From the NCBI GenBank assembly GCA_963734725.1, contig CAVTIX010000027.1:14967-78966 (forward strand): a stretch of DNA of 64,000 nt, in the 5' to 3' direction. The DNA comes from an uncultured Actinomycetes bacterium (GTDB taxonomy: Bacteria > Actinomycetota > Actinomycetes > Streptosporangiales > Streptosporangiaceae). Both the position numbers and the translations under genes were made by a program. The notes below the pieces were generated by a model. It ran no database searches. It had not been told where the DNA came from and saw only the letters and a list, made by a program, of their open reading frames with translations. Positions 31,995 to 64,000 of the stretch are shown piece after piece (the stretch's first letter is position 1; each line of letters opens with the position of its first letter).

Positions 31995-34076
31995 TTACTT
32001 CGCGGGCAGTTCGACCGAGGGTCGGATCGACCGCATCTGCGCGGCAAGCTGGGCCAGGTCCATGGTGGGCGAGGTCAGCACGCCGAACGTGTCGCCGTCC
32101 GCCCACGTGCACAGGGCCACGCCGCCCGCCGCGCTCCCCTGGGCGTTCACGCACGCAGCCTGCCCGCCCAGCGGCCCGGCCGTAGTGGCCTGCGCACCCT
32201 TGAACTGAGCGGTGAAGCTCGTGATGAATCCGGCGGGCGAGACCCCGGCTAGATTCCCGCCGATGAACAGGAAGATCTGCGGCTGCGCGGCCCCGGAGAC
32301 TCCAGCCTTGTTCTCGTAGACGGCGGAAACCACATGGCTGGCCTGCCCGGCGCTCTTGGCGATGACCTGCTGCTGGAGCGACTTGGCGTTCATCTGCTGC
32401 TCCAGTTGCGGCCTGCGCACGTACGAGCCGAGTTGCGACGGTACTGCCAGTTCGTGAGACCTGCCGCTGCTGCGTGGGATGAGCTTGAGCTTTACCGCGG
32501 CTGCGGCGCCCGCCCCGAGGACCACGATCAGCCCGACGGCCAGCAGGATGAACCGTACCCGGCGCTTCCTGCCTCGCCCGGCCCGCGAACGATGGCCACC
32601 CAGTTCGTCGGCGTCGGCCGGTTCCTCGCTGACCGGCCGGTCCTGAACCTTCCGCCGCCGCGACCTGCCCGCGCCGGCCCCATCCTCCTCCAGCCCGAAC
32701 TCCCGTGGCGGTGCCGCCGGGCCAGGCGCGCCAGGTCGTCCGCGACTGCCTTCCCGGGCCCGATCCGGCGCCTGCTCTTCTGGCGCCCGCACCGGCAGCA
32801 CGCGCCCGCCGTCCGGGCCGCGCCGGGAACCGGGTCCGCTGTCCCCTGGGCGGGCGCGACGATCCGGCACCGGCGAACGCAACGCATCCGCGCCCTGGCC
32901 CGCGGCCCTGCGGCCACGGCCAGTCGCCGGCCGGTCGTCTCCGGGCGCCCAGGGAGCGCTCGGCGCGGCAGGGCGCCCGGCCGCGCGGGAACCGGGTTCC
33001 GCGCCGGGCCGCGACGGCCGGATGGCGGTGTCCGGCCCGGCGCGCATCTCTGCCGGGTGTTCCGGCCAGGGCCTCGGCCCGAACTTGGGATCGGCGCGCG
33101 GGCCAACCCGGCCCTCCTGCCCAGGGCCTGAGCCGGGCCAGGTGCCGCTTTCGCGCCCGAACCCCGGTCCGGACCGGGCGCCGGGCCCAGGGCCGAGGCC
33201 TGTATCGGCGTGGCGGGCCCGGCGGGCGCCGCTGGCGGGGTCGTCAAGCGCAGGGGCGAGCGGGGCGGAGAGCGGAGCGGAAGGCGCGGGACCGTCGGTC
33301 GGCGCGCGCCGACGGCCCGGGTCAGACGCCGTGCGCCGGCCGACCCCGCGACCAGGATCAGCCCCGCGACCAGGATCCGTCTCAGGACCGTGATCAGCAT
33401 GGGACCCGTGGCGCGGGTCCGCGCCGGGGTCGCGGCGCACGTCTGCGCCTGCGGCACCGAAGGAGCCCGCCCCGTCGCGGTACGGGTCCGCGCCCCGGCT
33501 GCGGCCTGGAATGGGCCGACCGGTCACTCGCAAGTCCAGGCTCGTCTCGTCGGCGAGACCGCCGCGCTGGACCGGCGCGCGGTTCGGCCGCGGGTGACCG
33601 TTCCAGCCCGGGTCGCCGCCCGGAACCGGGTCACGGGCCGGACCCGGGTCATGACCGAGGCGCGGGTCACCGTACCGGCCCGGATCGGCGGGGTGACGAT
33701 CCAGCCGCGGACCACGGTCCAGTTGCGCATCCCCGGCCAGCCGCGGATCACCGGCGAGCCGCGGATCACCAGCCAGGCGCGGATCACCGGCCAGGCGCGG
33801 GTCACCGCGGTCCGGGCCATCCGCGCGGCCCGGTTCCATCGAACGGCCCTCTACCGGACGCTGCCCCTCAGGATGCTGATCTGCGGGCCGCCGGCTTACG
33901 GCACGGTGCCGCCCGTTCGGAGTCCCATTCCGGCGGCTGTCACGGCCGTAGTCGCGATCGGGGCCCCACCCAGGGTCGTGACCGGGAGCACTGTCTGAGC
34001 CGAGGTCGGGGTCACGAGCGGTGACGGACCCACGCCAGCGAGGGTCCCTGGAAGGCTCCGAACCGCTGTCGCTCAT
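31995..34076 (-). CDS. Hypothetical single-pass membrane protein with a ~480-aa Pro/Arg/Gly/Asp-rich N-terminal region
   Basis: 693-aa ORF with the tandem motif GDPRLA x4, a TM helix RFILLAVGLIVVLGAGAAAAV, and a C-terminal ~170-aa globular-looking extracytoplasmic domain. Confidence 0.55.
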   Translation of the reverse strand: MSDSGSEPSRDPRWRGSVTARDPDLGSDSAPGHDPGWGPDRDYGRDSRRNGTPNGRHRAVSRRPADQHPEGQRPVEGRSMEPGRADGPDRGDPRLAGDPRLAGDPRLAGDPRLAGDAQLDRGPRLDRHPADPGRYGDPRLGHDPGPARDPVPGGDPGWNGHPRPNRAPVQRGGLADETSLDLRVTGRPIPGRSRGADPYRDGAGSFGAAGADVRRDPGADPRHGSHADHGPETDPGRGADPGRGVGRRTASDPGRRRAPTDGPAPSAPLSAPLAPALDDPASGARRARHADTGLGPGPGARSGPGFGRESGTWPGSGPGQEGRVGPRADPKFGPRPWPEHPAEMRAGPDTAIRPSRPGAEPGSRAAGRPAAPSAPWAPGDDRPATGRGRRAAGQGADALRSPVPDRRARPGDSGPGSRRGPDGGRVLPVRAPEEQAPDRAREGSRGRPGAPGPAAPPREFGLEEDGAGAGRSRRRKVQDRPVSEEPADADELGGHRSRAGRGRKRRVRFILLAVGLIVVLGAGAAAAVKLKLIPRSSGRSHELAVPSQLGSYVRRPQLEQQMNAKSLQQQVIAKSAGQASHVVSAVYENKAGVSGAAQPQIFLFIGGNLAGVSPAGFITSFTAQFKGAQATTAGPLGGQAACVNAQGSAAGGVALCTWADGDTFGVLTSPTMDLAQLAAQMRSIRPSVELPAK

Positions 34077-34541: not shown

Positions 34542-35185
34542 TCAGGCGGGGCGGTGGTAGGCGTTGCGGGTGCGCTCGACGTGGCTGCGGGCAACCTTCG
34601 CCGCCTGCTCGCCGTCACCGGACTCAACCGCTTCGACCATGGCCAGGTGCTCGGCACACGACTCGTGCTCGCGCAGCGGGGCCACCAGGCGGTAGTACCA
34701 GCGCGCCCGGCGGCCGACGATCGCGCTCAGCTCGGCCAGGACCGCGTTGCCCGCGATCTCCGCGAGCGCGGCGTGGAAGTCGCTGTTCAGCGCGACGAAG
34801 CTTTCGGAGTCGCCCGAGGCCACTGCGGCCTCACCGTCGCGGCAGATGGCCCGCAGCCGCGCTACCTGCTCCGCGGTCACCGCCCGCGACGCCAGCCGGG
34901 CAGTCTCAACCTCCAGCAACTCCCGGACATCGAGGATCTGGTCCACTTCCTTGTCGGTGGGCACGTGCACGAAAGCGCCCTGGTTGGGGCGGAGGTCAAC
35001 CCACCCCTCCGCCTCCAGCCGGTGCAGTGCCTCGCGCAGGGCTGGCGGCTCACCCCGAGTTGGCGCGCCAGCTCTGTCTCCACCAGGTGCTGCCCGGGCG
35101 TGAGCCGACCCGCGATCACCAGCTCCACCAGCGCCTCGTAGGCCGACTGCCGCAACGGCACCGGCCGCTCCACCGGGCGGATCAT
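34542..35185 (-). pseudogene. GntR-family (FadR/FCD subfamily) regulator, frame change near 35035-35050
   Basis: GAAGGAAGG lies upstream of the ATG at 35185. The wHTH part MIRPVERPVPLRQSAYEALVELVIAGRLTPGQHLVETELARQLGVSR is in ORF 34877..35227. The continuation PALREALHRLEAEGWVDLRPNQGAFV plus the FCD domain is in ORF 34542..35207. One extra C in cgccagcc would restore GVSRPALREAL. Confidence 0.7.
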
Positions 35186-35616
35186 CGGCCTTCCTTCGCG
35201 ACTGCATCCCGCGATCTCACGTGCCACCCCCCACCGCCGAGACCCCGGGCACCTGGGTTGTATCCAAAATACTCCCCCCGCTACTGGCTTTCGTGGCGCC
35301 GAGGTTTGGCCCCGGGGCGAGAGCGACGGCCGGGACGAGGCGGGCAGGAGCCAGGAGCGGCGGCCGGGACGAGGCGGGCGGGAGCCAGGAGCGGCGGCGG
35401 CCGGGACGAAGCGGCATGGCAGACGTAACGGCCAGGCGAGTTTGCCACGGGCAGGGCTCAGCGGCGCCTGTCCGTGGGTGACAGGAGGTGGCCCTGGCGC
35501 GGAGTTCTGTCCGCGTCAGGGCCACCTTCTGGCGCCCCTCCACGATGGGACGGCCTGCGAAGACCTTAGGCACCCCGGTCTTGGCGTATGACGCAGGGAT
35601 GCAAGACGATAGCGGG

Positions 35617-36702
35617 ATGACAAACAGCGTGCGGGGCGTGATCGCCCGGGCAAAGGGAGAACCGGTCGAGGGCACCACGGTGCTGGTGCCCGATCCTGGG
35701 CCGGGCGAGGCGCGGGTCCGGGTGCAGGCGTGCGGGGTCTGCCATACCGACCTGCACTACCGCGAGGGCGGCATCGGGGAGGACTTCCCGTACCTGCTGG
35801 GGCATGAGGCGGCGGGCGTGGTCGAGGCCGTCGGCGATGGGGTGACCGGCGTCGCTCCCGGCGACTTCGTCATCCTCAACTGGCGCGCGGTGTGCGGCCA
35901 GTGCCGCGCGTGCAAGCGGGGCCGGCCGTGGTACTGCTTCGCCACGCACAACGCCGGGCAGAAGATGACCCTCGAAGATGGCACGCCGCTGTCGCCGGCG
36001 CTGGGCATCGGCGCCTTCGTCGAGCAGACCCTCGTCGCCGCGGGCCAGTGCACCAAGGTCAACCCGGCGGTCCCGCCGGAGGTTGCGGGCCTGCTGGGCT
36101 GCGGCGTGATGGCCGGACTCGGCGCGGCGATCAACACCGGCGCGGTGACGCGGGGTGACTCGGTCGCCGTCATCGGCTGCGGCGGCGTGGGCGACGCGGC
36201 GGTGCTCGGTGCGTACCTGGCCGGCGCGCATACGATCATCGCGGTCAACGTGGACCCGCGGAAGCTGGAGTGGGCGCGCCAGTTCGGCGCCACCCATGTG
36301 ATCAACTCGCGCGAGGCCGACCCGGTGGCCGAGATCCAGGCGCTGACCGGGGGCAACGGGGCCGACGTCGTCATCGAGGCGGTGGGGCGGCCGGAGACCT
36401 ATCGGCAGGCGTTCTACGCCAGGGACCTGGCGGGCACGCTGGTCCAGGTCGGCGTGCCCACCCCGGACATGCGGATCGAGCTGCCGCTGCTGGACCTGTT
36501 CGGCCGCGGCGGCGCGCTCAAGTCCTCCTGGTACGGCGACTGCCTGCCAGAACGCGACTTCCCCATGCTCACCGGCCTCTACCTGCAGGGGCGGCTGCCA
36601 CTGGAGAAGTTCGTCTCGGAGACGATCGCGCTGGACGGCATCGAGGACGCCTTCGCCAAGATGGAGCGCGGCGACGTGCTCCGCTCGGTGGTGAAGTTCT
36701 GA
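35617..36702 (+). CDS. Class III zinc alcohol dehydrogenase, S-(hydroxymethyl)mycothiol (formaldehyde) dehydrogenase-like
   Basis: [18 protein letters not shown]…[11 protein letters not shown]…[14 protein letters not shown]…[15 protein letters not shown]…[11 protein letters not shown]. An ATG at 35599 is an alternative start. Confidence 0.85.
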
Positions 36703-54160: not shown

Positions 54161-55612
54161 CTAGTCGCCGAGCTCGGCGCGGCGGCGGGTGACGTAGTCG
54201 GCCAGTTCCTCGCGGATGGCGTCGTCCAGCGGCGGCGGCTCGTACTCTGCCAGGGTCTTCTTGGAGATCTCGCCGGCCCGCACCGTCGCGTCCTTGCCGC
54301 CCTGCTTGAGCCACCGCTCGTAGTTGGCGGTGGAGGACAGCAGCGGCCGGTAGAAGCAGGTGCGGAACCGCTCCATCGTGTGCGCGGCGCCCAGGAAGTG
54401 GCCGCCGTGGCCCACCTCCTCGTGCGCGCCGAACGCCAGCGACGCCTCGTCAATCTCCAAGGGGGTGAACTCGACTCGCAGCATCCGCAGCAGCTCGATG
54501 TCCACGATGAACTTCTCGTAGCAGCTCACCAGGCCGCCTTCCAGCCAGCCCGCGGCGTGCATCACCCAGTTGGCGCCCGCGAGGAAGGTGGGCAGCAGCG
54601 TCATCAGCGACTCATACGCCGCCTGCGCGTCGCAGGTCTGGCTGGAGTTGAGCCCGCCGCCGGTGCGGAACGGCAGCCCGTAGTGCCGGGCGAGCTGCCC
54701 GGTGCACAACAGGCCGATCGCCGACTCGGGCGTGCCGAAGCTGGGCGACCCGGACTGCATGTCGATGTTGGAGAGAAACGAGCCGAAGATCACCGGGCAG
54801 CCGGGCCGGATGAGCTGCGCCAGCGCAATGCCAGTGAGCGCCTCGGCAAGCTGCTGCGCCAGCGCGGACGGGATCGCCACCGGCGACATCGCTCCCATGA
54901 GCAGGAACGGGGTGAGGACCACCGGCTGGTTCGCCGCGCAGTACTCGAACTGCGCGTCCAGCATCCGGTCGTCCCAGCGCAGCGGCGAGTTGCAGTTGAT
55001 CAGCGAGATGGTAGCCGGGGTCTGCTCGATCGCGGACCGGCCCTTCTCCGGGCCGCCGAACAGGATCGAGGTCATCGCGATGGTGTCGGCCGCGTTCGGC
55101 CCGGACACCACGTTGCCCATGTAGATCTTGTCGGTCAGCGTCTGCAGGGCGTAGATCATGTCGAGGTGCCGGGAGTCCAGCGGCGCGTCGTTGGGCTCGC
55201 AGATCACCCCGCCCGCCGAGTCCAGTTCGGGGAACGACTGCGCCAGCATGGCCAGGCGGTGGAAGTCGTCCAGGGTGGCGTCCCGGCGGACCTCTCCCTC
55301 GCGGATGAACGGCGAGCCGTACACCGCGCCGAACACCATGTCGTCGCCGCCGATGTGCACGCTGTTGGCCGGGTTGCGCGCCTGAACGTTGAACTCGCGC
55401 GGGGCCTTGGCTGCCTGATCCAGCACGAACTCCGGGTCGAACTTGACCACGTCGCCGTCCACCTGCTGGCCGGCTTTGCGGAACAGTTCGACCGCCTCCG
55501 GTTTGGCGAACTGCACCCCGATCTCGCTCACAATGCGGCGCCAGCCGCGGTCGAGCACCGCGACCGCGTCGGCGGAGAGGATCTCGTATCGCGGCATCGT
55601 GTTGCGGAACAT
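54161..55612 (-). CDS. MttB-superfamily methyltransferase (trimethylamine methyltransferase family, non-pyrrolysine type)
   Basis: MFRNTMPRYEILSADAVAVLDRGWRRIVSEIGVQFAKPEAVELFRKAGQQVDGDVVKFDPEFV… is collinear with MttB/MtgB-type proteins. The ORF is uninterrupted, with no in-frame TAG. The start is the ATG at 55612 or 55597. Confidence 0.85.
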   Translation of the reverse strand: MFRNTMPRYEILSADAVAVLDRGWRRIVSEIGVQFAKPEAVELFRKAGQQVDGDVVKFDPEFVLDQAAKAPREFNVQARNPANSVHIGGDDMVFGAVYGSPFIREGEVRRDATLDDFHRLAMLAQSFPELDSAGGVICEPNDAPLDSRHLDMIYALQTLTDKIYMGNVVSGPNAADTIAMTSILFGGPEKGRSAIEQTPATISLINCNSPLRWDDRMLDAQFEYCAANQPVVLTPFLLMGAMSPVAIPSALAQQLAEALTGIALAQLIRPGCPVIFGSFLSNIDMQSGSPSFGTPESAIGLLCTGQLARHYGLPFRTGGGLNSSQTCDAQAAYESLMTLLPTFLAGANWVMHAAGWLEGGLVSCYEKFIVDIELLRMLRVEFTPLEIDEASLAFGAHEEVGHGGHFLGAAHTMERFRTCFYRPLLSSTANYERWLKQGGKDATVRAGEISKKTLAEYEPPPLDDAIREELADYVTRRRAELGD

Positions 55613-55706
55613 CGCCACCTGCCTCTTCCGGCTGACCCCGGGGCGGCTTGGTACCCGGCCGATGCGGCCTTGACCAGCTAAGACCCCGATCGTAGGATCA
55701 CATAGT

Positions 55707-55732
55707 AGAACAGAGTTCCGCAACGTGGAACT
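55707..55732. promoter_or_regulatory. Overlapping GAAC/GTTC palindromes at the iclR start, candidate operator
   Basis: The sequence reads GAAC-aga-GTTCC-gcaacgt-GGAACT. AGTTCC (55714-55719) and GGAACT (55727-55732) form a 6-bp inverted repeat spanning the GTG at 55725, within the mttB/iclR divergent region. Confidence 0.4.
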
Positions 55733-56828
55733 AGGTAGCGGCTATCGCAGGAACCCAACTGGCAGGCGCGTGGTGAGCAGTCGAGGCGGAACCCAGGCGG
55801 TGGACCGGGCGGCACGGCTGCTCACCGAGGTCGTGCACGCGCCCGGGGCGGTCACGTTCACCGAGCTTGCCGCGGCCACCGGCCTGGCCAAGAGCACCAC
55901 CTCGCGGCTGCTGCTGGCGCTGGAGCGCAACGGGCTGGTCCGCCGCGACGACGCGGGCCGGTTCCGGCCCGGGGAGATGTTCGTCCGGTTTGCCTGGCGC
56001 GGCGGCGCCGAGGCGGGGCTGACCGAGGTCGCCCAGCCCTGCCTGAACCAGCTCGGCCGGGACACTGGCGAGACCGTGAACCTGGGCGTCGGCCGGGACG
56101 GCGTGGTCGAGCAGATCGCCCAGGTGGACAGCGTGTATGTGATCGGCGCCACGAACTGGCTGGGCCGCGCGGTCCCGCTGCACTGCACGGCGATCGGCAA
56201 GGTCCTGCTCGCCTACGGCGCGGCGAAGCTGCGGCCCGGCCGGCTGGAGCGGCGCACCGAGCAGACCATCACCAGCCGGGCGGCGCTGGAGGCCGAGCTC
56301 GCCGCGGTACGGCAGCACGGCTACGCGGTCATTGACGGCGAACTCGAACCGGGGCTGGTGGCGGTGGCCGCCCCGGTCTACCGTGACGGCGGCGCCGTGG
56401 TCGCCGCCCTGTCGGTGTCCGGCCCGGGCACCCGGCTGACCCCGCCGCGGATCGCCGGCGTGGCAGCCGCGTGCATGGCGCAGGCCAGCGCGCTGTCCGC
56501 CGTCCTGGGCCACCGGCCGGAGCGCCCGGCGCATGGGAACGGCGCGCCGCGCCTGGCGCGGCCGGCCTCGGCGCGGCGGGCGCCGCAGCCGGGGCAGCGG
56601 CCCCAGGCACCGCCGGCAGCCCAAGCACCGCCGGCAGCCCAAGCACCGCCGGCAGCCCAAGCACCGCCGGCAGCCCAAGCACCGCCGGCAGCCCGGGCCC
56701 GGCCGGCAGCCCGGGCCCAGCCGGCCGCTTCAGCTCAGCCGACAGCGCAAGCCCCGCAAGCAGCCCGGGCCCGGCAAGCAGCGCAAGCCCCGCAAGCAGC
56801 CCAAGCACAGAGAGAAGGTGCCGCGTGA
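55725..56828 (+). CDS. IclR-family transcriptional regulator with a ~110-aa Ala/Pro/Gln low-complexity tail
   Basis: AVDRAARLLTEVVHAPGAVTFTELAAATGLAKSTTSRLLLALERNGLV (wHTH) plus an IclR effector domain up to about 56490. The frame then stays open through (APPAAQ)n to the TGA at 56826-56828. Confidence 0.8.
   Translation: MELGSGYRRNPTGRRVVSSRGGTQAVDRAARLLTEVVHAPGAVTFTELAAATGLAKSTTSRLLLALERNGLVRRDDAGRFRPGEMFVRFAWRGGAEAGLTEVAQPCLNQLGRDTGETVNLGVGRDGVVEQIAQVDSVYVIGATNWLGRAVPLHCTAIGKVLLAYGAAKLRPGRLERRTEQTITSRAALEAELAAVRQHGYAVIDGELEPGLVAVAAPVYRDGGAVVAALSVSGPGTRLTPPRIAGVAAACMAQASALSAVLGHRPERPAHGNGAPRLARPASARRAPQPGQRPQAPPAAQAPPAAQAPPAAQAPPAAQAPPAARARPAARAQPAASAQPTAQAPQAARARQAAQAPQAAQAQREGAA
56607..56696 (+). 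repeat. 18-bp tandem repeat GCACCGCCGGCAGCCCAA, 4 perfect copies plus 1 partial
   Basis: Copies start at 56607, 56625, 56643, 56661 and 56679. Related degenerate units continue to about 56815. The region is open in all three forward frames. Confidence 0.9.
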
Positions 56829-57490
56829 CACCCGACGAGCTACTCAAGCAGTTGTACGACGACACCCTGGTGGGTAACGGCCCCTCGGTGCTTGAGCTGA
56901 CGCAGACCGGACTGGGGGTGGGCATGGGCCCGGAGACGCTGCTCTACGACGCGCTGATCCCGGCGCTGGAGGAGGTCGGCGCGCGGTTCGAGCGCGGCGA
57001 CTTCTTCGTGCCGGAGATGCTGATCGCGGGCAAGGCGATGGCGGGGGCGCTGGAGATCCTGCGCCCGCTGCTGGCCGAGACCGGCGCCGCCTCGATCGGC
57101 AAGGTGGTCATGGGCACGGTCAAGGGCGACGTGCACGACATCGGGAAAAACCTGGTGAACATCATGTTCGAGGGCGCCGGGTTCGAGGTGATCGACCTGG
57201 GCGTGCAGGTGTCACCGGAGAAGTTCATCGACGCGGTCCGCGAGCACCAGCCCGACATTCTCGGCTTCTCCGCGTTCCTGACCACGACCATGCCGATGTT
57301 CAAAGCGAACATCAACGCGCTGGAGAAGTCCGGGCTGCGCGACCAGGTGATCGTCATGGTCGGCGGGGCGCCGGTCACCCAGGAGTACGCCGACGTGGTA
57401 GGCGCCGACGGGTATGCCGCCGACGCCTCGGCGGCGGTGGTCCGCGCCAAGGAACTGCTGCAGCGGCGCCGCGCCGCGCTGCCCGCGTAA
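56825..57490 (+). CDS. Corrinoid (cobalamin-binding) protein, MtgC/MttC-like
   Basis: The GTG at 56825 overlaps the iclR stop (GTGA). There is an N-terminal B12-binding cap helix bundle, then the DxHxxG motif in VKGDVHDIGKNLV and a Rossmann-like B12 domain (…VMVGGAPVT…). A longer form starting at the GTG at 56471 cannot be excluded. Confidence 0.85.
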   Translation: MTPDELLKQLYDDTLVGNGPSVLELTQTGLGVGMGPETLLYDALIPALEEVGARFERGDFFVPEMLIAGKAMAGALEILRPLLAETGAASIGKVVMGTVKGDVHDIGKNLVNIMFEGAGFEVIDLGVQVSPEKFIDAVREHQPDILGFSAFLTTTMPMFKANINALEKSGLRDQVIVMVGGAPVTQEYADVVGADGYAADASAAVVRAKELLQRRRAALPA

Positions 57491-57501
57491 CGGCGGCCGG
57501 C

Positions 57502-58500
57502 GTGGACACCGTCCTTTCCTCGGCCAACCAGCAGATCGTGATCGGCCCCGGCCAGCCGTTCTGCATCATCGGCGAGCGGATCAACCCGACCGGGCGCAAG
57601 GCGTTCCAGGAGGAACTGCGGGCCGGCGACCTGTCCCGGGTGGAGACCGACGTCGCCCAGCAGGTCGCCGGGGGCGCCATGGTGCTCGATGTGAACATGG
57701 GCGCGCCGCTGGCCGACGAGGCAGAACTCATGGGCCGGGCGGTCCAGCTGATCCAGGGCCTGACCGACCTGCCGCTGGTCATCGACTCCTCGATCATTGA
57801 GGTCCTGGACGCTGGGCTGGCCGCCTACCAGGGCAAGGCGCTGGTCAACTCGGTCACCGCCGAGGACGACCGGCTGGCCGCGATCCTGCCGCTGGTGCGC
57901 AAGCACGGCGCCGCGGTCATCGGCCTGCCCAACGACGAGGAGGAGATCCCCGAGGAGCCGGCCCGCCGGGTCGAGCTGGCCCGCAAGATCATCGACGTGG
58001 CCACCGGGAAGTACGGCGTCGCCATCGAGGACATCGTCATCGACCCGCTCGCGATGCCGGTCGGCGCGGACACCGGCCACGGCATCCGGACGCTGGAAAC
58101 GATTGCGCTGCTCCGTGAGGAGTTCGGCGTGAACATGACGCTGGGCGCCTCGAACGTGTCGTTCGGCATGCCGGACCGGCACGCGATCGGCGCCGCGTTC
58201 CTGCCGGTGGCCATCTCGCACGGTCTGACCAGCGCGATCATGGACGCTCGCTCGCCGCAGATCGTCCGCGCGGTGAAGGCCGCCGACCTGCTGCTCGACC
58301 GAGACCCCTGGGGCGCGTCATGGATCGCCGCCCACCGCGCCCAGCAGGCCGCTGCCGCTTCGGCCACTGCCGGTTCGGCCACTGCCGGTTCGGCCACTGC
58401 AGCCGCGGAGGCGCATGCCGCCGGGGCCCCGGGGGCCGCCGCGCAGTCCCCGGGGGCCGCCGCGCAGGCCTCCGGGGCCGCCGCGCAGGCTGCGCCGTGA
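57502..58500 (+). CDS. Methyltetrahydrofolate:corrinoid methyltransferase (pterin-binding domain), with an Ala-rich C-terminal tail
   Basis: FCIIGERINPTGRKAF…LDVNMG…LVNSVT…IDPLAMPVGA…LGASNVSFGMP are hallmarks of the pterin-binding TIM barrel of MeTr/MtgA/MetH type. The tail is SATAGSATAGSATAAAE…GAAAQSPGAAAQASGAAAQ. Confidence 0.85.
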   Translation: MDTVLSSANQQIVIGPGQPFCIIGERINPTGRKAFQEELRAGDLSRVETDVAQQVAGGAMVLDVNMGAPLADEAELMGRAVQLIQGLTDLPLVIDSSIIEVLDAGLAAYQGKALVNSVTAEDDRLAAILPLVRKHGAAVIGLPNDEEEIPEEPARRVELARKIIDVATGKYGVAIEDIVIDPLAMPVGADTGHGIRTLETIALLREEFGVNMTLGASNVSFGMPDRHAIGAAFLPVAISHGLTSAIMDARSPQIVRAVKAADLLLDRDPWGASWIAAHRAQQAAAASATAGSATAGSATAAAEAHAAGAPGAAAQSPGAAAQASGAAAQAAP

Positions 58501-60392
58501 CCAGCGTCGACGGCACTGTGGCCACCGACTCCGGCGGAGCGGGGCACCCGGCCGGACCAGTGCGGGTCGACCTGGTCTTCGAGCCGGGCGGGCGGCGGGT
58601 GCGGGTGCCACACGGAGTGACCTTGTTCGACGCGGCAAGCTGGAACGGCATCGCGATCGACTCCACCTGCGGCGGGCATGGCACCTGCAAGAAGTGCAAG
58701 GTCCGGGTGCTGGACGACGGCGCGGACCCGCCGTCCGCGCTGGACGCCCGCGCGTTCACACCCGAAGAGCTGAGCCAAGGATGGCGGCTGGCCTGCCGAG
58801 CGCAGGCCCTTAGCGATGTCCGCGTTGACGTACCAGCGCTTGTCACCCGGCCGAAGGCCGCCACGGTCGGCGTCGGGCGCCAGGTGATCCTGCGGCCCGC
58901 GGTGCAAAAACGCTACTTGGAGCTGGCCGAGCCGTCGCTGAGCGACCAGGTGACCGACGTCGAGCGGGTGATCGCGGCCCTGGACGACCTGGAACTGCGG
59001 GTTGACCTGGACGTGTTGCGCACGCTCGGCCGGGTGCTGCGCGGTGCCGACTACAAGGTCACCGCGGTGGTCGTGGACGACATGCTGATCGGCGTGGAGC
59101 CGGGCGACACAACCGGCCGCCGCTTCGGCATCGCCTTCGACCTAGGCACGACCACGGTCGTGGCGACGCTGCTCGACCTGGCCACCGGGACCCCGGCCGC
59201 GGTGGCGTCCCGGCTCAACGCGCAGCAGCCGTTCGGCGCGGACGTGATCAGCCGGATCAGCGCGACCATGCTGGACCCGGCGGCGCTGGACCGGCTGCAG
59301 ACGCTGGCGCAGGAAACCCTGGCGGAGCTGGCTGCCGAGGTGTGCGCGCAGGGCGGCGCAGACCCGGCCGAGGTATACGAGGTGGCGCTGGCCGGCAACG
59401 CCACCATGACCCACCTGGTCCTCGGCATCGACCCGGAGCCACTCGGGATGGCGCCGTTCATCATGGCCACCCGGCTGTTCCCCGAGGTGCTCGCCGCCGA
59501 CCTGGGCATCGGCGTGCACCCGCGGGCCCGGGCTGTGGTGTTCCCAGCGTTCGGCGCCTACGTCGGCGGGGACATCACCGCCGGGCTGCTCGCCTCCGGG
59601 ATGGACCGGGACGCGCGGCTCCGGCTGTTCGTGGACATCGGCACCAACTGCGAGATCGTGCTGGGGAACCGGGACTGGCTGCTGGCCACGGCGGCACCGG
59701 CCGGGCCCGCGTTCGAGGGCGCGGCGATCCGGTGTGGGATGCGCGCCGCCGACGGGGCGATCGAGGTGGTCACGATGACCCCGGACGCCCTGGAACTCAC
59801 GGTGATCGGCGACGCCGCGCCGACCGGGCTGTGCGGCTCCGGGCTGGTGGACGCGGTGACCGGGCTGGTCCGGCTGGGGCTGCTCGACCCCTCCGGCCGG
59901 TTCGTGCCCGAGGAGCAGGCCGGCGCGCTGGCCCCCGGGCTGGCCGGGCGGCTGACCCGGCTCGGCGAGGAGCGGGTGTTCGTGCTGCACTGGCTCGGCT
60001 CGCCAGGCGACGTGGCGCATTCGATCTACCTGTCCCAGCGGGACGTGCGGGAACTCCAGTTCGCCAAGGCGGCGATCGCCACCGGGTGGCGGATCCTGCT
60101 GGAGGAGGCGGGCCTGGCGCCTGGCGACATCCAGCAGGTCCTGCTGGCGGGCTCGTTCGGCAGCTACCTGTCCCCGGCCAACGCGATCAGGCTCGGCCTG
60201 GTCCCGGAGATCGGCGTGCTGCGCGTGGTCAGCGCCGGGAACGTCGCGGGCGAGGGGGCCAAGATGGCGCTGCTGTCGCTGCGCGAGCGGGCCGCCGGGC
60301 TGGCGCTGCTGGAGGAGGTGAGGTATGTCGAGCTGTCCGACCGCGCCGACTTCAACGACCGCTTCGTCGCGCAACTCCCCTTCCCGGGCTGA
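58497..60392 (+). CDS. RACo-type corrinoid reductive activase (N-terminal [2Fe-2S] ferredoxin + ASKHA ATPase, DUF4445)
   Basis: The GTG at 58497 overlaps the upstream stop (GTGA). A plant-type ferredoxin Cys cluster is present (DSTCGGHGTCKKCKV…WRLAC), followed by actin-like ATPase motifs (GIAFDLGTTTVVATL, VDIGTNCEIVLG, ATAAPAGPAFEGA). Confidence 0.85.
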   Translation: MTSVDGTVATDSGGAGHPAGPVRVDLVFEPGGRRVRVPHGVTLFDAASWNGIAIDSTCGGHGTCKKCKVRVLDDGADPPSALDARAFTPEELSQGWRLACRAQALSDVRVDVPALVTRPKAATVGVGRQVILRPAVQKRYLELAEPSLSDQVTDVERVIAALDDLELRVDLDVLRTLGRVLRGADYKVTAVVVDDMLIGVEPGDTTGRRFGIAFDLGTTTVVATLLDLATGTPAAVASRLNAQQPFGADVISRISATMLDPAALDRLQTLAQETLAELAAEVCAQGGADPAEVYEVALAGNATMTHLVLGIDPEPLGMAPFIMATRLFPEVLAADLGIGVHPRARAVVFPAFGAYVGGDITAGLLASGMDRDARLRLFVDIGTNCEIVLGNRDWLLATAAPAGPAFEGAAIRCGMRAADGAIEVVTMTPDALELTVIGDAAPTGLCGSGLVDAVTGLVRLGLLDPSGRFVPEEQAGALAPGLAGRLTRLGEERVFVLHWLGSPGDVAHSIYLSQRDVRELQFAKAAIATGWRILLEEAGLAPGDIQQVLLAGSFGSYLSPANAIRLGLVPEIGVLRVVSAGNVAGEGAKMALLSLRERAAGLALLEEVRYVELSDRADFNDRFVAQLPFPG

Positions 60393-60993
60393 GGCCCCGG
60401 TCCTGGTGATCGCGTGTGGCGCCCTGGGCGCGCACCTGCGCGAGATCATCGCGCGCCGCGGCTGGCCGGCCGAGTTGCGCTGTCTTCCCGCCCTGCTGCA
60501 CAACCACCCAGAGAAAATCACCATTCATGCCGAACGACTAGCCCGGGCTGGCCTGGCCCGCGGGCAACGGGTCGCCGTGGCTTACGCCGACTGCGGGACG
60601 TACGGCGCGCTGGACAAGGTGTGTGCGCGGCTGGGGTTGCGGCGGCTGCCGGGGCTGCACTGTTACGACGTGCTGGCCGGGCCGGAGCGGATCCGGGCCG
60701 AGTTCGAGGCCGAGCCCGGCACCTACGTGCTCACCGACTTCCTGGTCCGGAGCTTCGCCAAGACCGTGCTCGCGGAGCTCGGCCTCGACCGGCACCCGGA
60801 ACTGTGGCCGGACTACTTCGGGCACTACCGCCGGGTGGTCTGGCTGGCCCAGGACCGGGACCCGGACCTGGAGGCGGAGGCGGGGCGGGTGGCGGCCCGG
60901 TTCGGGCTGCCGCTCACCATCGTGGACACCGGGACCAGCCGCCTGGAGCGGGAACTGGAGGTCCTGATCGCCGGGCAGGGTTTGTGGTCGTGA
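60325..60993 (+). CDS. DUF1638-domain protein
   Basis: VLVIACGALGAHLREII…AYADCGTYGALD…YVLTDFLVRSF… is typical of DUF1638, a family usually found beside corrinoid methyltransferase genes. The start is uncertain: ATG at 60325 (overlapping the upstream gene) or GTG at 60406. Confidence 0.7.
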   Translation: MSSCPTAPTSTTASSRNSPSRAEAPVLVIACGALGAHLREIIARRGWPAELRCLPALLHNHPEKITIHAERLARAGLARGQRVAVAYADCGTYGALDKVCARLGLRRLPGLHCYDVLAGPERIRAEFEAEPGTYVLTDFLVRSFAKTVLAELGLDRHPELWPDYFGHYRRVVWLAQDRDPDLEAEAGRVAARFGLPLTIVDTGTSRLERELEVLIAGQGLWS

Positions 60994-61012
60994 CAAACAG
61001 GCGGACCGAATG

Positions 61013-61172
61013 CCGGGGGCAGGCCGTGATCCGGGGCGAGCCGGGGACCGGGGGCAGGCCGTGATCCGGGGCGAGCCGGGGACCGGGGGCAGGCCGTGAT
61101 CCGGGGCGAGCCGGGGACCGGGGGCAGGCCGTGATCCGGGGCGAGCCGGGGACCGGGGGCAGGCCGTGATCT
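61013..61172 (+). repeat. 35-bp tandem repeat, 4 identical copies plus a diverged fifth containing the MTHFR start codon
   Basis: The unit is GTGATCCGGGGCGAGCCGGGGACCGGGGGCAGGCC. GTGs lie at 61026, 61061, 61096 and 61131, and at 61166 in the diverged copy GTGATCTGGGGCGGGCC. The period is not a multiple of 3. Confidence 0.95.
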
Positions 61173-62038
61173 GGGGCGGGCCGTTCCGGGGCGGCCTGGC
61201 CAGCGTCGCCCCGTTGCTGGAGCATCCCCGGTACGAGGTGTTCCCGGCCGATAGCGTGGCGGATGCGGTCGCGCGGTGGGTCCCACCGGGCATGACGGTG
61301 ACCGTGACCGCCTCGCCCACCAAGGGCCTGGACGCCACCCTTGACCTGACCGAGGTGCTCGCGGGCCGTGGCTACCAGGTCGTGCCGCACCTGTCCGCCC
61401 GGCTGGTCCGGGACAACGCGCACCTGGCCGACATCGCCGCCCGGTTGATCGCATGCGGGGTGGACGACGTCTTCGTCCCCGCGGGTGACGCCGACCCCCC
61501 GGCAGGCCGTTTTGACAGCGCTTTGTCTTTGCTTGAGCGACTGGCGGAAATGGGCAACCCTTTCCCGCGCACCGGCATCACCGGGTATCCGGAGACGCAC
61601 CCCAGGATCGGCGACGACATCACGATCCAGGCCATGTGGGACAAGTGTCGGCTCGCCTCCTACATCGTGAGCAACCTGTGCTTCGACCCGGCCACGGTGC
61701 GCCGGTGGATCCGCCGGGTCCGCGCGCGTGGCGTCACGCTGCCGCTGTACGTGGGGCTAGCCGGGCCGGTGGAGCGCACCCGGCTGCTGCGGATGGCGGC
61801 CAAGGCGGGCGCCAGCGAGTCGGCCAGGTTCCTCGCCGGGCATGTCGAGTGGTTCCTGCGGTTCGGCACCCCCGGCGGCTACCGGCCGGAACGACTGCTC
61901 GCCAGGCTGGCGCCCGCGGTGACCGCGTCGGCCTCCGGCGTGGCCGGGCTGCACCTCTTCACGTTCAACCAGGTCCAGCAGACCGAGGAGTGGCGGAGGG
62001 AACTGCTGGCCCGCGCGGGCGCCGCCCAGCCCGTCTAG
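61166..62038 (+). CDS. Methylenetetrahydrofolate reductase (MetF-like) family protein
   Basis: …RYEVFPADSV…VTVTASPTKGLDATL…VVPHLSARLV…FVPAGDADPP…TGITGYPETHP…IVSNLCFD…PLYVGLAGPVERTRLLRMA… are MTHFR TIM-barrel hallmarks. The GTG at 61166 is the first in-frame start. Confidence 0.8.
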   Translation: MIWGGPFRGGLASVAPLLEHPRYEVFPADSVADAVARWVPPGMTVTVTASPTKGLDATLDLTEVLAGRGYQVVPHLSARLVRDNAHLADIAARLIACGVDDVFVPAGDADPPAGRFDSALSLLERLAEMGNPFPRTGITGYPETHPRIGDDITIQAMWDKCRLASYIVSNLCFDPATVRRWIRRVRARGVTLPLYVGLAGPVERTRLLRMAAKAGASESARFLAGHVEWFLRFGTPGGYRPERLLARLAPAVTASASGVAGLHLFTFNQVQQTEEWRRELLARAGAAQPV

Positions 62039-62265
62039 ACCACGTCTAGACCCGGTGCGGCCGCCGCAAACCCGCTACGCAAGCGCTATGCGGAATCACG
62101 TGTAGTAATTGCACGGAATACAATCGCTTGCACTACGCCAGCCCGAGAGTCTCGTTTCCGGTTTTGTTCCGTGATCTGAAATGGGCGTGTATAACCGGCG
62201 TGAGGTTTGGTTGACATGACCCGGGATTGCCCCGGATACGCGCGCGGGTTGGTGGCCAGACAAGC

Positions 62266-64000
62266 ATGAGCGGGAGCCAGCTGGACGGTGGCCTGGCACG
62301 GCCGGGCACGGTGAACTGGCCGCTGCTGTCGGGCGTGATCCCGCAACTGGCGGACTCTCACATTCCCCGGCACGAGAGCGGACTCGGCCTGGCCGCCAGC
62401 CTGGCCCCCGGCGACACGGCCGTGCTCATCCCGTCCGACGAAGCGGGCCGGTCCCTCGGCGGGCTTGGCGGCACCGGCAAGACGCAGCTCGCCCTGGCCG
62501 TGGCGCATGCGCTGTGGAATCAGCGGGCGCTGGACCTGGTCGTCTGGCTGTGCCCGTCCACCAGGGACGCTGTGGTAACCGCCTACGCGCAGGCGATGCG
62601 GGATATCGGGGAGGCGGCCCACGGGGAGCCCGCGGAAAGGGCCGCCGCGCGGTTCCTCGACTGGCTGGGCGAGACCCGCCGGCCGTGGCTGGTCATCCTC
62701 GACGATCTCGCCGACGCGGCTGTGCTGGAGGGGCTGTGGCCACATGGACCGCAGGGGCGCGTGGTCGTCACCAGCCGCCGGCCCGCCACCGCGGTGCGTG
62801 CCTACCGCCCGCGCGCGGTCGAGGTGGGGCCGTTCAGCCCGCGCGAGGCGCTGGGGTACCTGTCAGCCAAGCTGCACAACGACCCCGACCAGTGGATCGG
62901 CGCCCTCGACCTGGCGGGCGACCTCGGCTACCTGCCGATCGCGCTGGCGCAGGCGGCGGCGCTGATGGCCGACACCGGCCTGGACTGCCGCCAGTACCGG
63001 GCCAGGGTCACCGACCGGATGCAGCGCCTGACCGGCGCCCCACCGGGGGCTTATCCCTCGATCGTCGCGTCCACCTGGTCGATCGGCACCGAAATGGCCG
63101 AGCAGATACCGCCGGCCGGGCTGGCCCGCCCGGCGCTGGCCCTGGTCGCGATGCTGGATCCCAACGGCATTCCCGGCGCCGTGCTGACCAGCCAGGCCGC
63201 CTGCGCTTATCTCACCCGTTACCGGCGGAGCGCCGCCGTGGATGAGGCGGAGGCCCGCGCCGCTCTGTTCAACCTGGCCCGGACAGGCCTGGTCAGCATC
63301 GATACCACCAGCGCGGCCCGGACCGTGCGGGTACACGCGCTGGTGCAGGCCACGGTCCAGCAGAACCTCACCGCCGCCGAATGCGACGAGGCGGCGCGCA
63401 CCGCCGCGGAGGCGCTGCTCCAGATCTGGCCCCGCGACGACGTCCCGCCGCTGTATGAGCAGGCGCTGCGCGACTGCACCGCGCGGCTGCATGAGATCGC
63501 GGGCCGGCTGCTCTGGACCCCCGAGTGCCACCCGCTGCTGGTGCGGGCGGGCCGCAGCCTCGAAGCGAGCGGGCTGACCGGGGCCGCCGTCGCCTACTGG
63601 CAGTCACTGCTAACCGTCAGCGAGGCCGAGCTGGGACCCGGCCATACGCACACCCTGCTGGCCCACGACCGGCTGGGCGCGGCCCAGGAGGCGGCGGGGC
63701 GCCCGGACGCCGCGGTGGACGTGTACCAGGCGGCGCTGGACGAACGGCAGCGACTGCTCGGCGCGGCCCATCCGGACACCGTCGCGGCCCGCGCTAACCT
63801 CGCCCGCGCGTACCGGGAGGCAGGCCGGGCCCAGGAGGCGGTCAGCCTCGCCGAGCGCGTTCTCGCCGAATCTGAGAAGGGCAGGGGGACCCGGCACCCG
63901 GACACCCTGGCCGCCCGCGGCGACCTGGGCGAGGCCTATCTCGAAGCGGGGAAAAGCGACCAGGCCATCACCGCGTTCCAGCAAGCCCTGGCCGGCCGGG
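62266..64000 (+). CDS. STAND NTPase (NB-ARC-like P-loop domain + TPR repeats), partial; runs off the window
   Basis: Translated by hand from the ATG at 62266, with no stop to the window end (so it is absent from the ORF track). Walker A GGLGGTGKTQLA, Walker B RPWLVILDDL and GYLPIALAQAA are present. TPR units follow (HTHTLLAHDRLGAAQEAAGRPDAAVDVYQAALDERQRLLGAAHPDTVAARANLARAYREAGRAQEAV…). Confidence 0.75.
   Translation, partial: MSGSQLDGGLARPGTVNWPLLSGVIPQLADSHIPRHESGLGLAASLAPGDTAVLIPSDEAGRSLGGLGGTGKTQLALAVAHALWNQRALDLVVWLCPSTRDAVVTAYAQAMRDIGEAAHGEPAERAAARFLDWLGETRRPWLVILDDLADAAVLEGLWPHGPQGRVVVTSRRPATAVRAYRPRAVEVGPFSPREALGYLSAKLHNDPDQWIGALDLAGDLGYLPIALAQAAALMADTGLDCRQYRARVTDRMQRLTGAPPGAYPSIVASTWSIGTEMAEQIPPAGLARPALALVAMLDPNGIPGAVLTSQAACAYLTRYRRSAAVDEAEARAALFNLARTGLVSIDTTSAARTVRVHALVQATVQQNLTAAECDEAARTAAEALLQIWPRDDVPPLYEQALRDCTARLHEIAGRLLWTPECHPLLVRAGRSLEASGLTGAAVAYWQSLLTVSEAELGPGHTHTLLAHDRLGAAQEAAGRPDAAVDVYQAALDERQRLLGAAHPDTVAARANLARAYREAGRAQEAVSLAERVLAESEKGRGTRHPDTLAARGDLGEAYLEAGKSDQAITAFQQALAGR

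What the first reader, a model, noticed from the sequence alone, without database searches (positions are those of the whole stretch)
61013..61172. 35-bp tandem repeat makes four identical 12-codon uORFs chained by GTGA overlaps directly into the MTHFR start
The unit GTGATCCGGGGCGAGCCGGGGACCGGGGGCAGGCC repeats perfectly four times (GTG at 61026, 61061, 61096, 61131). Each GTG opens the same mini-ORF, M-I-R-G-E-P-G-T-G-G-R-P-stop. Its TGA overlaps the next unit's GTG (39 nt ORF, 35 nt period, 4-nt overlap). The fifth, diverged unit (GTGATCTGGGGCGGGCC…, GTG at 61166) is the start of the MTHFR ORF. The repeat is therefore an amplified copy of the gene's own 5' end and its G-rich pre-start sequence. 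Contiguous copies without spacers rule out a CRISPR array. A period that is not a multiple of 3 rules out a coding repeat within one long ORF. Possible roles are a termination-reinitiation relay that tunes MTHFR translation, a contingency/VNTR locus whose copy number sets expression, or a neutral slippage or assembly artefact.
Basis: seen in the sequence. Interest (0 to 1): 0.65.

Follow-up and report, generated by a model that had tools for sequence, protein, structure and literature searches.

The report
Repeat array at overlapping stop-start gene junction
A 35-base unit holding the overlapping stop/start signal (GTGA) between two operon genes has been copied in tandem, giving a strain-variable chain of tiny reading frames that can still hand ribosomes to the downstream MTHFR-like gene; it resembles mycobacterial MIRU repeats but arose on the spot.

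Summary
Four perfect 35-bp units lie at 61026-61165, inside a 4.9-copy array at 61013-61183. Each unit opens MIRGEPGTGGRP-stop, and each TGA overlaps the next GTG. The last GTG (61166) is the only possible MTHFR-like start.

The frames are not leader uORFs. They lie between DUF1638 and the MTHFR-like gene, the last two genes of an MttB/corrinoid methyltransferase cluster. The DUF1638 stop (TGA 60991) also sits in a GTGA, so five overlaps link DUF1638 to MTHFR.

In relatives the simplest state is one GTGA shared by the DUF1638 stop and the MTHFR start. The unit is that junction duplicated: 17 nt of gene start plus 18 nt of G-rich pre-start. About 45 related soil junctions differ in period (17 to 59 nt) and copy number. 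In all 34 distinct metagenome junctions the DUF1638 frame reaches the MTHFR start through stop/start overlaps or an abutting stop-start only.

Best reading: a slippage-born junction minisatellite (VNTR) that keeps translational coupling by construction and may attenuate it. The relay itself is inferred.

The unit-to-unit junction appears in independent soil runs, but the copy number of four could not be verified. The closest analogue is MIRU-VNTR. I rate it a new variant of a known kind, of moderate interest.

The parts
60325..60993 (+). DUF1638 gene (PF07796). The stop TGA 60991-60993 lies inside GTGA 60990-60993. The true start may be GTG 60400, 7 nt after the RACo stop.
   Evidence: Pfam E=2e-20; frames and stops; sequence around the RACo stop.
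60979..61001 (+). Collapsed remnant (GGTTTGTGGTCGTGACAAACAGG) of a double-hairpin element that relatives carry in full at this position. The collapse creates the in-frame TGA 60991.
   Evidence: Comparison with 18 full copies in related loci.
60990..61064 (+). First relay frame. GTG 60990 overlaps the DUF1638 stop. It has 24 codons (VTNRRTECRGQAVIRGEPGTGGRP), reads through GTG 61026 in frame, and ends at TGA 61062, which overlaps GTG 61061.
61013..61183 (+). Tandem array: period 35, 4.9 copies, with four perfect units at 61026-61165. Each unit is 17 nt of MTHFR start (GTGATCCGGGGCGAGCC) plus 18 nt of pre-start (GGGGACCGGGGGCAGGCC), with a GGGGG run 6 nt before each GTG.
61061..61099 (+). Mini-ORF 2 (MIRGEPGTGGRP*). 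Its TGA 61097 overlaps GTG 61096.
61096..61134 (+). Mini-ORF 3 (identical peptide). Its TGA 61132 overlaps GTG 61131.
61131..61169 (+). Mini-ORF 4 (identical peptide). Its TGA 61167 overlaps the MTHFR start GTG 61166.
61166..62038 (+). MTHFR-like gene (PF02219), 290 aa, last gene of the cluster. The GTG start is fixed by conservation of the N-terminus.
   Evidence: Pfam E=6e-11; homologue N-termini; only possible start.
56602..56828 (+). Same theme at another junction. An in-frame 18-nt x 11.5 repeat forms the IclR C-terminal tail, which ends in GTGA (56825-56828) overlapping the start of the corrinoid protein.
58347..58500 (+). Same theme at a third junction. In-frame 15-nt x 3.6 and 21-nt x 3.1 repeats form an Ala-rich tail on the pterin-binding methyltransferase, which ends in GTGA (58497-58500) overlapping the RACo start.

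Best explanation
The array is a recently expanded, strain-variable minisatellite. It was made by tandem duplication of the overlapping stop/start junction (GTGA) between DUF1638 and the MTHFR-like gene.

The likely mutational route is slipped-strand mispairing between the CCGGGG(G)C motifs that flank the junction about 33-35 nt apart (inferred).

The duplicated segment carries three things: the G-run that lies 6 nt before the start (Shine-Dalgarno-like), the GTG, and the overlapping TGA. Every copy is therefore a miniature version of the junction.

A ribosome finishing DUF1638 at TGA 60991 can restart at GTG 60990. It would then terminate and restart four more times, through one 24-codon frame and three 12-codon frames, and arrive at the genuine MTHFR start (61166). 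Translational coupling is thus kept despite 174 nt of inserted DNA.

Each hand-off is presumably less than fully efficient. Copy number would then most likely grade MTHFR output down relative to DUF1638 rather than switch it. The peptides themselves have no function.

Shown here: the anatomy, the origin from the junction, the hypervariability among relatives, and the retention of stop/start linkage in relatives. Inferred: that reinitiation really happens at each GTG, and that copy number changes expression.
For: Anatomy.

Operon context: the order is IclR, corrinoid protein, pterin-binding methyltransferase, RACo, DUF1638, MTHFR, all on the + strand, with mttB divergent. One promoter-like site lies at 55670, and there are no terminator-like sites in 55500-62500.

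Ancestral state: L030 and L035 have a 5-nt junction with one GTGA shared by the DUF1638 stop and the MTHFR start. L013 and L019 show the same single GTGA after short tails of 44 and 32 nt.

Lineage-wide module: arrays built on a 17-18-nt module GTGATCCGGGGCGGGCC recur across the clade. L003 has 14 x 17 nt, L021 has 3.5 x 35 nt, L059 has 2.5 x 59 nt, and L028 and L029 differ by one 18-mer. The module occurs only at this junction in the window and in all loci fetched.

Linkage kept: in 34 of 34 distinct metagenome junctions the DUF1638 frame reaches the MTHFR start through stop/start overlaps or an abutting stop-start only. Starting in the two wrong frames succeeds in 16/34 and 10/34.

Frame kept: in 23 of the 34 the DUF1638 frame itself stays open through tails of at least 17 different lengths (0-149 nt) and stops exactly on the MTHFR start (TAG abutting an ATG in three of them). 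Only frame-preserving length changes are seen.

Species-representative MAGs: 7 of 12 junctions keep the relay.

Copy number: any number of units from 0 to 8 keeps the chain, with n units giving n+1 hand-offs.

Literature: 4-nt overlaps give strict coupling in 13 of 14 tested gene pairs (PMC6728339). [quoted passage not shown]
Against: No expression data cover the junction. Metatranscriptome contigs cover both genes of relatives but drop to zero depth across the array.

The chain is a geometric consequence of duplicating a GTGA in DNA that is almost free of stop codons. The multi-relay cases therefore do not show selection.

The junctions compared share ancestry, so the 34/34 count overstates the number of independent trials.

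Each unit has its own G-run plus GTG. MTHFR could equally initiate de novo and ignore the relay.

The copy number of four perfect units rests on one assembly.

Two nanopore MAGs read as DUF1638-MTHFR fusions. One more distant relative (L065) has an uncoupled spacer of about 160 nt.
Confidence: 0.6

Rival explanations
1. Neutral slippage product. The array is real and variable, but the mini-ORFs are incidental. MTHFR initiates de novo at its own G-rich ribosome-binding site, and copy number has no meaningful effect on expression.
For: The four units are identical, so the expansion is very recent. The chain arises automatically at any copy number. The peptides are not conserved among relatives, whose units differ in length and sequence. 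In-frame repeat expansions also occur at two other junctions of the same operon, which points to a general mutational tendency.
Against: Among relatives, the DUF1638 frame always ends on the MTHFR start or is relayed to it. Tail-length changes are frame-preserving in 23 junctions of many lengths. That pattern is what is expected if termination at the MTHFR start matters.
Confidence: 0.28
2. G-quadruplex-prone element. The sense strand carries 15 runs of four or more G. It could fold into G-quadruplexes in the mRNA or the non-template DNA, and so affect translation, transcription or replication. That would also explain the instability.
For: The G4Hunter mean over 150 nt is 1.23. The highest value in the whole 64-kb window, 1.27, lies inside this array (window mean -0.01, sd 0.23). 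There are 15 runs of G>=4 and no run of C>=4 in 61000-61200. GC skew there is +0.24. The RNA shows no excess Watson-Crick structure (z = +1.38).
Against: No canonical motif with all loops of 7 nt or less is present; the loops are 6, 3 and 13 nt. The score sits only at the usual threshold. Relatives with far fewer G-runs keep the same gene arrangement. This reading is compatible with the main explanation rather than exclusive of it.
Confidence: 0.08
3. Assembly artefact. The tandem array, or its copy number, was produced by mis-assembly of a short perfect repeat.
For: About 159 nt of perfect periodicity is hard to resolve with short reads. No reads of the source strain could be found. An exact 24-mer from the junction has no match in 185,579 species-representative genomes.
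Against: Exact flank-to-unit and unit-to-unit contigs occur in four independent soil runs from several studies. Related contigs from many assemblies, including nanopore MAGs, carry arrays at the same junction.
Confidence: 0.04

Closest known systems
MIRU-VNTR (mycobacterial interspersed repetitive units; Supply et al. 1997, as summarised in PMC12548453 and PMC3184786)
   Same: Both are short units in head-to-tail arrays between co-transcribed genes of a high-GC actinobacterium. Each unit contains a small frame whose stop and start overlap the neighbouring frames by 4 nt, so coupling to the downstream gene survives. Copy number differs between strains.
   Different: MIRUs are 40-100 bp, occur at about 40-50 loci per genome, and look mobile, with target-site repeats. 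Here the unit is 35 bp (with a 17-18-nt module) and is a copy of the local junction itself. It was found at no other place in the window or in any locus fetched. The host is a Streptosporangiaceae-like soil actinomycete. No sequence relationship to MIRUs was tested or is claimed.
Translational coupling of gene pairs with 4-nt overlaps, by termination-reinitiation (PMC6728339, PMC10666635, PMC12548453)
   Same: There is an NTGA overlap on the same strand in an operon, with a purine-rich motif inside the upstream frame a few nucleotides before the restart codon. Relatives show the plain one-step version at this very junction.
   Different: Here five such overlaps are chained through frames of 12 to 24 codons. 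I found no description of such a serial relay in the papers searched. Coupling itself is untested here.
Simple-sequence contingency loci (phase variation by repeat-number change)
   Same: Both are slippage-prone tandem repeats next to a start codon whose number varies between strains.
   Different: Changing the number of units never shifts the downstream gene out of reach. Any effect would be graded, not on/off.
Bicistronic 'ribosome delivery' designs and short upstream frames coupled to a downstream gene (reviewed in PMC12548453)
   Same: A short frame with no product of its own ends on the start of the real gene and may deliver ribosomes to it.
   Different: Those cases have one short frame, in a 5' leader. 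Here there are several identical frames between two genes.

Membership tests
MIRU-VNTR | Tandem units lying between genes of one operon | tested here: met
   The array lies between the DUF1638 stop (60993) and the MTHFR start (61166), on the same strand, with no terminator-like site.
MIRU-VNTR | Each unit holds a frame whose stop and start overlap the adjacent frames by 4 nt | tested here: met
   GTGA at 60990, 61061, 61096, 61131 and 61166.
MIRU-VNTR | Copy number differs between strains | tested here: met
   Related junctions differ in period and number of units. L028 and L029 differ by one unit.
MIRU-VNTR | Interspersed: the same unit occurs at many loci of a genome, with signs of insertion | tested here: not met
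   The module was found only at this junction in the 64-kb window and in all loci fetched. The unit is a copy of the local gene start. The whole genome was not available.
MIRU-VNTR | Unit of 40-100 bp, sequence classes I-III, genus Mycobacterium | tested here: not met
   The unit is 35 bp. The relatives are Streptosporangiaceae or uncultured Actinomycetes MAGs. Sequence similarity to MIRU classes was not tested.
Translationally coupled overlapping gene pair (termination-reinitiation) | Co-directional frames whose stop and start codons overlap (ATGA/GTGA) | tested here: met
   Five consecutive GTGA overlaps. Relatives have a single GTGA joining DUF1638 and MTHFR.
Translationally coupled overlapping gene pair (termination-reinitiation) | Translation of the downstream frame depends on translation of the upstream frame | not testable with these tools
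   This needs reporters with an early stop in DUF1638, or ribosome profiling.
Phase-variable contingency locus | A change in repeat number shifts the gene in or out of frame, or on or off | tested here: not met
   With 0 to 8 units the chain always ends on the MTHFR start.
CRISPR array | Repeats separated by unique spacers of similar length | tested here: not met
   The units are contiguous.
Structured regulatory RNA (riboswitch or leader) | Stable conserved secondary structure, or a match to a curated RNA family | tested here: not met
   The MFE is -121.6 against a shuffle mean of -127.7 (z = +1.38). No Rfam match lies in the array; the single hit in 60300-61700 (mir-1909 at 60398-60464, E=0.21) is weak and outside it.
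G-quadruplex-forming repeat | Four or more G-runs with short loops; K+-dependent folding | tested here: inconclusive
   There are 15 G>=4 runs, and the G4Hunter score of 1.23 is near the window maximum of 1.27, which lies in the same array. However, one 13-nt loop per unit means no canonical motif. Folding is not testable here.

The most novel reading that the evidence does not exclude
The junction array is a locally born, MIRU-like 'ribosome funnel'. The unit period is 2 mod 3 and every unit carries a GTGA, so a ribosome arriving in any of the three frames is steered to the MTHFR start. Coupling thereby becomes robust to the +/-1 slippage that the array's own G-runs invite: 89% of single-base indels keep the hand-off with 4 units, against 21% with none. 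The number of units would set the MTHFR:DUF1638 ratio. If so, selection for coupling, not for peptide or RNA structure, shapes a hypervariable locus. It would also show one way MIRU-type elements can originate.
Probability: 0.2. Interest if true: 0.7.

Novelty: new variant of a known kind. Interest (0 to 1): 0.45.

Why it matters
If the relay works, this is a natural series of 0 to 14 chained termination-reinitiation steps at one junction across closely related strains. That is a ready-made titration for measuring how efficient one bacterial hand-off is, a number the coupling literature says is still missing (PMC6728339). It would also show that MIRU-like, coupling-preserving repeats can arise in place by duplicating an overlapping stop/start junction, outside mycobacteria. 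There is a practical point too. Gene callers mis-start or extend both genes at such junctions, as seen in homologues with spurious N-terminal extensions. The locus would also serve as a strain marker for this abundant soil actinomycete clade.

Tried and rejected
Searches that found nothing useful:
- Exact-product look-ups for the window's DUF1638 and MTHFR proteins found nothing.
- An exact 24-mer spanning pre-start and start (GGGGACCGGGGGCAGGCCGTGATC) has no match in the species-representative genomes. The source genome is therefore not among them, and dispersal of the unit could not be tested genome-wide.
- No sequencing run holds the source strain. The best runs share 0.47 of the sampled words of the junction region (60800-61400) and 0.59 of a 5-kb stretch around it. 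The copy number stays unverified.
- Metatranscriptome contigs show that relatives' DUF1638 and MTHFR are transcribed in soil but do not span the junction. Co-transcription is not shown.

Readings rejected:
- RNA structure: the array folds no better than shuffles.
- Known RNA family: none in the array.
- CRISPR and in-frame coding repeat: rejected from the anatomy.
- Functional micro-peptide: the peptide is not conserved. Relatives encode MIRGRP and other variants, or none.
- Long antisense and alternative-frame ORFs across the array are treated as high-GC artefacts, because they overlap Pfam-supported genes.

A test I had to correct: my first relay test was too lenient, and wrong frames passed in 30/34 and 24/34 junctions. 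I tightened it.

A near-match of the module at 33735 (minus strand) is an unrelated in-frame GDPRLA coding repeat.

Full report
**1. What is there**

The sequence at 61013-61183 is a tandem array of period 35 with 4.9 copies and 98% matches. The 35-mer GTGATCCGGGGCGAGCCGGGGACCGGGGGCAGGCC occurs exactly four times, at 61026, 61061, 61096 and 61131. No match is expected in shuffles, and there is no further copy in the 64-kb window at up to three mismatches.

Each GTG opens VIRGEPGTGGRP-stop. The TGAs at 61062, 61097, 61132 and 61167 each overlap the next GTG. The fifth unit differs at 61172 and 61179, departs from the repeat after 61183, and is the start of a 290-aa frame with a Pfam MTHFR match.

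GTG 61166 is the only start codon between the in-frame TGA at 61097 and a segment conserved even in distant homologues (GGLAS..APLL..PR(Y/F)EVFP). More than 100 homologues begin (M/V)I(R/W)GGPFRGGLAS.

**2.

The array is not in a 5' leader. Upstream on the same strand lie, in order:
- an IclR regulator,
- a corrinoid (B12-binding) protein,
- a pterin-binding methyltransferase,
- a RACo-type corrinoid activase,
- a DUF1638 protein.

A divergent MttB-family methyltransferase and an amidohydrolase sit on the other strand. This is a corrinoid-dependent methylamine or betaine demethylation cluster.

DUF1638 has been linked genetically to RamA/RACo-type corrinoid reactivation (PMC5764234; PMC12478193). 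One promoter-like site precedes iclR, and no terminator-like site lies between 55500 and 62500 (weak evidence).

DUF1638 ends at TGA 60991, and that stop also sits in a GTGA. GTG 60990 opens a 24-codon frame that reads through GTG 61026 in frame and ends at TGA 61062. An unbroken chain of five GTGA overlaps therefore runs from the DUF1638 stop to the MTHFR start.

**3. Where the unit came from**

I fetched 56 metagenome loci and 14 species-representative genome loci encoding close relatives of the MTHFR-like protein. Most are 76-94% identical, and they come from Streptosporangiaceae or uncultured Actinomycetes soil MAGs.

In the simplest junctions (L030, L035; also L013 and L019 after short tails) a single GTGA serves as both the DUF1638 stop and the MTHFR start. 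The window's unit is that junction copied. It consists of 17 nt of gene start (GTGATCCGGGGCGAGCC against the gene's GTGATCTGGGGCGGGCC) plus 18 nt of pre-start (GGGGACCGGGGGCAGGCC against the relatives' GGATGCCGGGGGCGGGCC).

CCGGGG(G)C motifs flank the junction about 33-35 nt apart, which makes slipped mispairing the likely route (inference). The four units are identical to each other but differ from the gene's own copy at two sites. So an older duplicate was amplified very recently.

**4. The junction is hypervariable across the clade**

TRF on each distinct junction finds arrays built on a 17-18-nt module GTGATCCGGGGCGGGCC:
- period 17: 14 copies in L003,
- period 18: L015, L027, L028, L029,
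- period 28: L028,
- period 35: L021 (3.5 copies), L002, and the window,
- period 42: L061,
- period 59: L059.

L028 and L029 differ by exactly one 18-mer, and each form appears on two independent contigs. The module occurs only at this junction in the window and in all loci fetched.

Contigs from independent soil runs reproduce the window's flank-to-unit joins exactly (X1, X2). The full 35-mer cycle appears as 65-nt contigs in X3 and X20. X4 holds a close relative with a differently built array.

The array is therefore real, and it is a VNTR at population level. The number four in this assembly could not be verified, because no run with this strain's reads was found.

**5. Is the stop/start linkage kept?**

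I walked from the conserved end of DUF1638, allowing only stop/start overlaps (NTGA, TGATG-type) or an abutting stop-start. In all 34 distinct metagenome junctions the walk ends on the MTHFR start. Starting in the two wrong frames, it does so in only 16 and 10 of 34. An earlier, looser version of the test was uninformative.

In 23 of the 34 the DUF1638 frame itself stays open through a variable tail and stops exactly on the MTHFR start (a TAG abutting an ATG in three of them). These tails have at least 17 different lengths, from 0 to 149 nt, and some contain a hairpin element or other inserts. So only frame-preserving length changes are seen.

Seven of 12 junctions from species-representative MAGs also keep the relay. 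Two read as fusions and two are frameshifted; these may be homopolymer errors in nanopore assemblies. One distant relative (L065) has an uncoupled spacer.

Two caveats apply. The junctions share ancestry, so they are not independent trials. In arrays made of GTGA-bearing units the chain is automatic: with n units there are n+1 hand-offs and the chain never breaks.

The single-step cases are therefore the real evidence that termination at the MTHFR start is under selection. The multi-step cases show only that duplication of the junction does not destroy it.

**6. How it most likely works**

Four-nucleotide overlaps give strict translational coupling in 13 of 14 tested gene pairs, with a variable contribution from a Shine-Dalgarno motif inside the upstream frame (PMC6728339).

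Each unit here has a GGGGG run 6 nt before its GTG. From my own knowledge, this can pair with the CCUCC of the 16S 3' end using one G-U pair.

My best reading is that ribosomes leaving DUF1638 are passed on by five successive termination-reinitiation events. The hand-offs are imperfect, so the array most likely lowers MTHFR output in a graded way. De novo entry at any unit GTG could partly offset this.

A computed by-product concerns robustness. With four units, 74% of single-base indels in the tail and array still deliver to the true start, and 15% more deliver to an in-frame upstream GTG. With no unit the figure is 21%. All three frames funnel to the start. This is a property of the sequence, not evidence of selection.

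**7. Rivals**

- Neutral slippage with de novo initiation at MTHFR remains quite possible.
- A G-quadruplex role is suggested by the G4Hunter score. The 150-nt mean is 1.23, and the window maximum of 1.27 lies inside this array. There are 15 runs of G>=4 and no run of C>=4. However, no canonical short-loop motif is present.
- Ordinary RNA structure is not supported (z = +1.38). No Rfam family matches the array.
- An on/off contingency switch is excluded.

**8. Comparison with what is known**

The closest analogue is the mycobacterial MIRU-VNTR. These are tandem units between operon genes whose internal frames are coupled at -4 nt to the neighbouring gene, and whose number varies between strains (PMC12548453 and PMC3184786, citing Supply 1997).

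This array works like a MIRU but fails two defining features. It is not interspersed in the sequence available, and it is a copy of the local junction rather than an inserted element. The host and the unit size also differ. I found no description of serial relays of this kind in the papers searched.

I rate it a new variant of a known kind, of moderate interest.

**9. The same habit elsewhere in the operon**

Two other junctions end in GTGA and are preceded by tandem repeats. Those repeats have periods that are multiples of three and simply lengthen the upstream protein's tail:
- IclR to corrinoid protein: 18 nt x 11.5, with GTGA at 56825.
- Methyltransferase to RACo: 15 nt x 3.6 plus 21 nt x 3.1, with GTGA at 58497.

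These tails also vary in length among relatives, while their last few codons and the overlap are conserved. The window strain has the longest tail at each. The DUF1638/MTHFR case differs only in that the repeated segment includes the overlap itself.

Noticed in passing
window 60979-61001 (remnant); full copies e.g. L017:4587-4659, L024:3803-3875, L005:982-1054, and two copies in L057: Many relatives carry a double-hairpin element right after the DUF1638 domain: TTTGT-[~20-nt palindromic core]-ACAAAAGAATGT-[core]-ACAAACGA. The cores differ between strains but keep their pairing: of 19 predicted pairs, 9 show compensatory double changes across 18 copies. The loop is nearly invariant. The element lies inside the open DUF1638 frame. 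It has no convincing Rfam match (only a weak miRNA-family hit, E=0.27), and its conserved loop motif was found only at this junction in the loci fetched. The window keeps only a collapsed remnant, and that collapse creates the early TGA 60991. Its function is unknown.
   Followed up: partly
window 56602-56828: The IclR regulator has a C-terminal tail of about 108 aa made of an in-frame 18-nt x 11.5 repeat (PPAAQA...). It ends in GTGA overlapping the corrinoid protein's GTG at 56825. Relatives have tails of 75-267 nt that differ by repeat number, while the last residues (QREGAA) are conserved, probably because they hold the next gene's ribosome-binding site.
   Followed up: partly
window 58320-58500: The mechanical ORF list starts RACo at ATG 58320. 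The likely start is GTG 58497, which overlaps the methyltransferase stop. The 15-nt and 21-nt repeats at 58347-58490 encode an Ala-rich tail on the methyltransferase. That tail is 213 nt here against 81-156 nt in most relatives.
   Followed up: partly
window 35321-35398: A 34-nt x 2.3 tandem repeat (95% matches) lies in the divergent intergenic region between a regulator-like gene (34542-35207, minus strand) and an alcohol-dehydrogenase-like gene (35488-36702, plus strand). It is another repeat with a period that is not a multiple of three, placed next to gene starts.
   Followed up: no
window 33701-33807 (minus strand, inside ORF 31995-34076): An in-frame 18-nt x 5.9 repeat encodes (GDPRLA)n in the low-complexity N-terminal part of a 693-aa protein. 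It contains GGTGATCCGCGG and gave a chance near-match to the junction module.
   Followed up: partly
window 25505-26391: A large tandem repeat (period 168, 5.3 copies, 85% matches; also scored at period 337) was not examined.
   Followed up: no
L057, L058, L066, L069 (nanopore-derived MAG contigs): At the same junction these loci read as DUF1638-MTHFR fusions or carry frameshifts. Given the many G-runs, these may be homopolymer errors rather than biology. Short-read contigs of similar strains keep the frames.
   Followed up: no
proteins P0034, P0053, P0060, P0066, P0081 (homologues of the MTHFR-like protein): Database gene calls for these homologues start upstream, inside junction repeats (for example MASPDPGRAAGPDPAVIRGGPQRGGPLRAGPLRGG...). 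This shows that such arrays mislead automatic start prediction.
   Followed up: no
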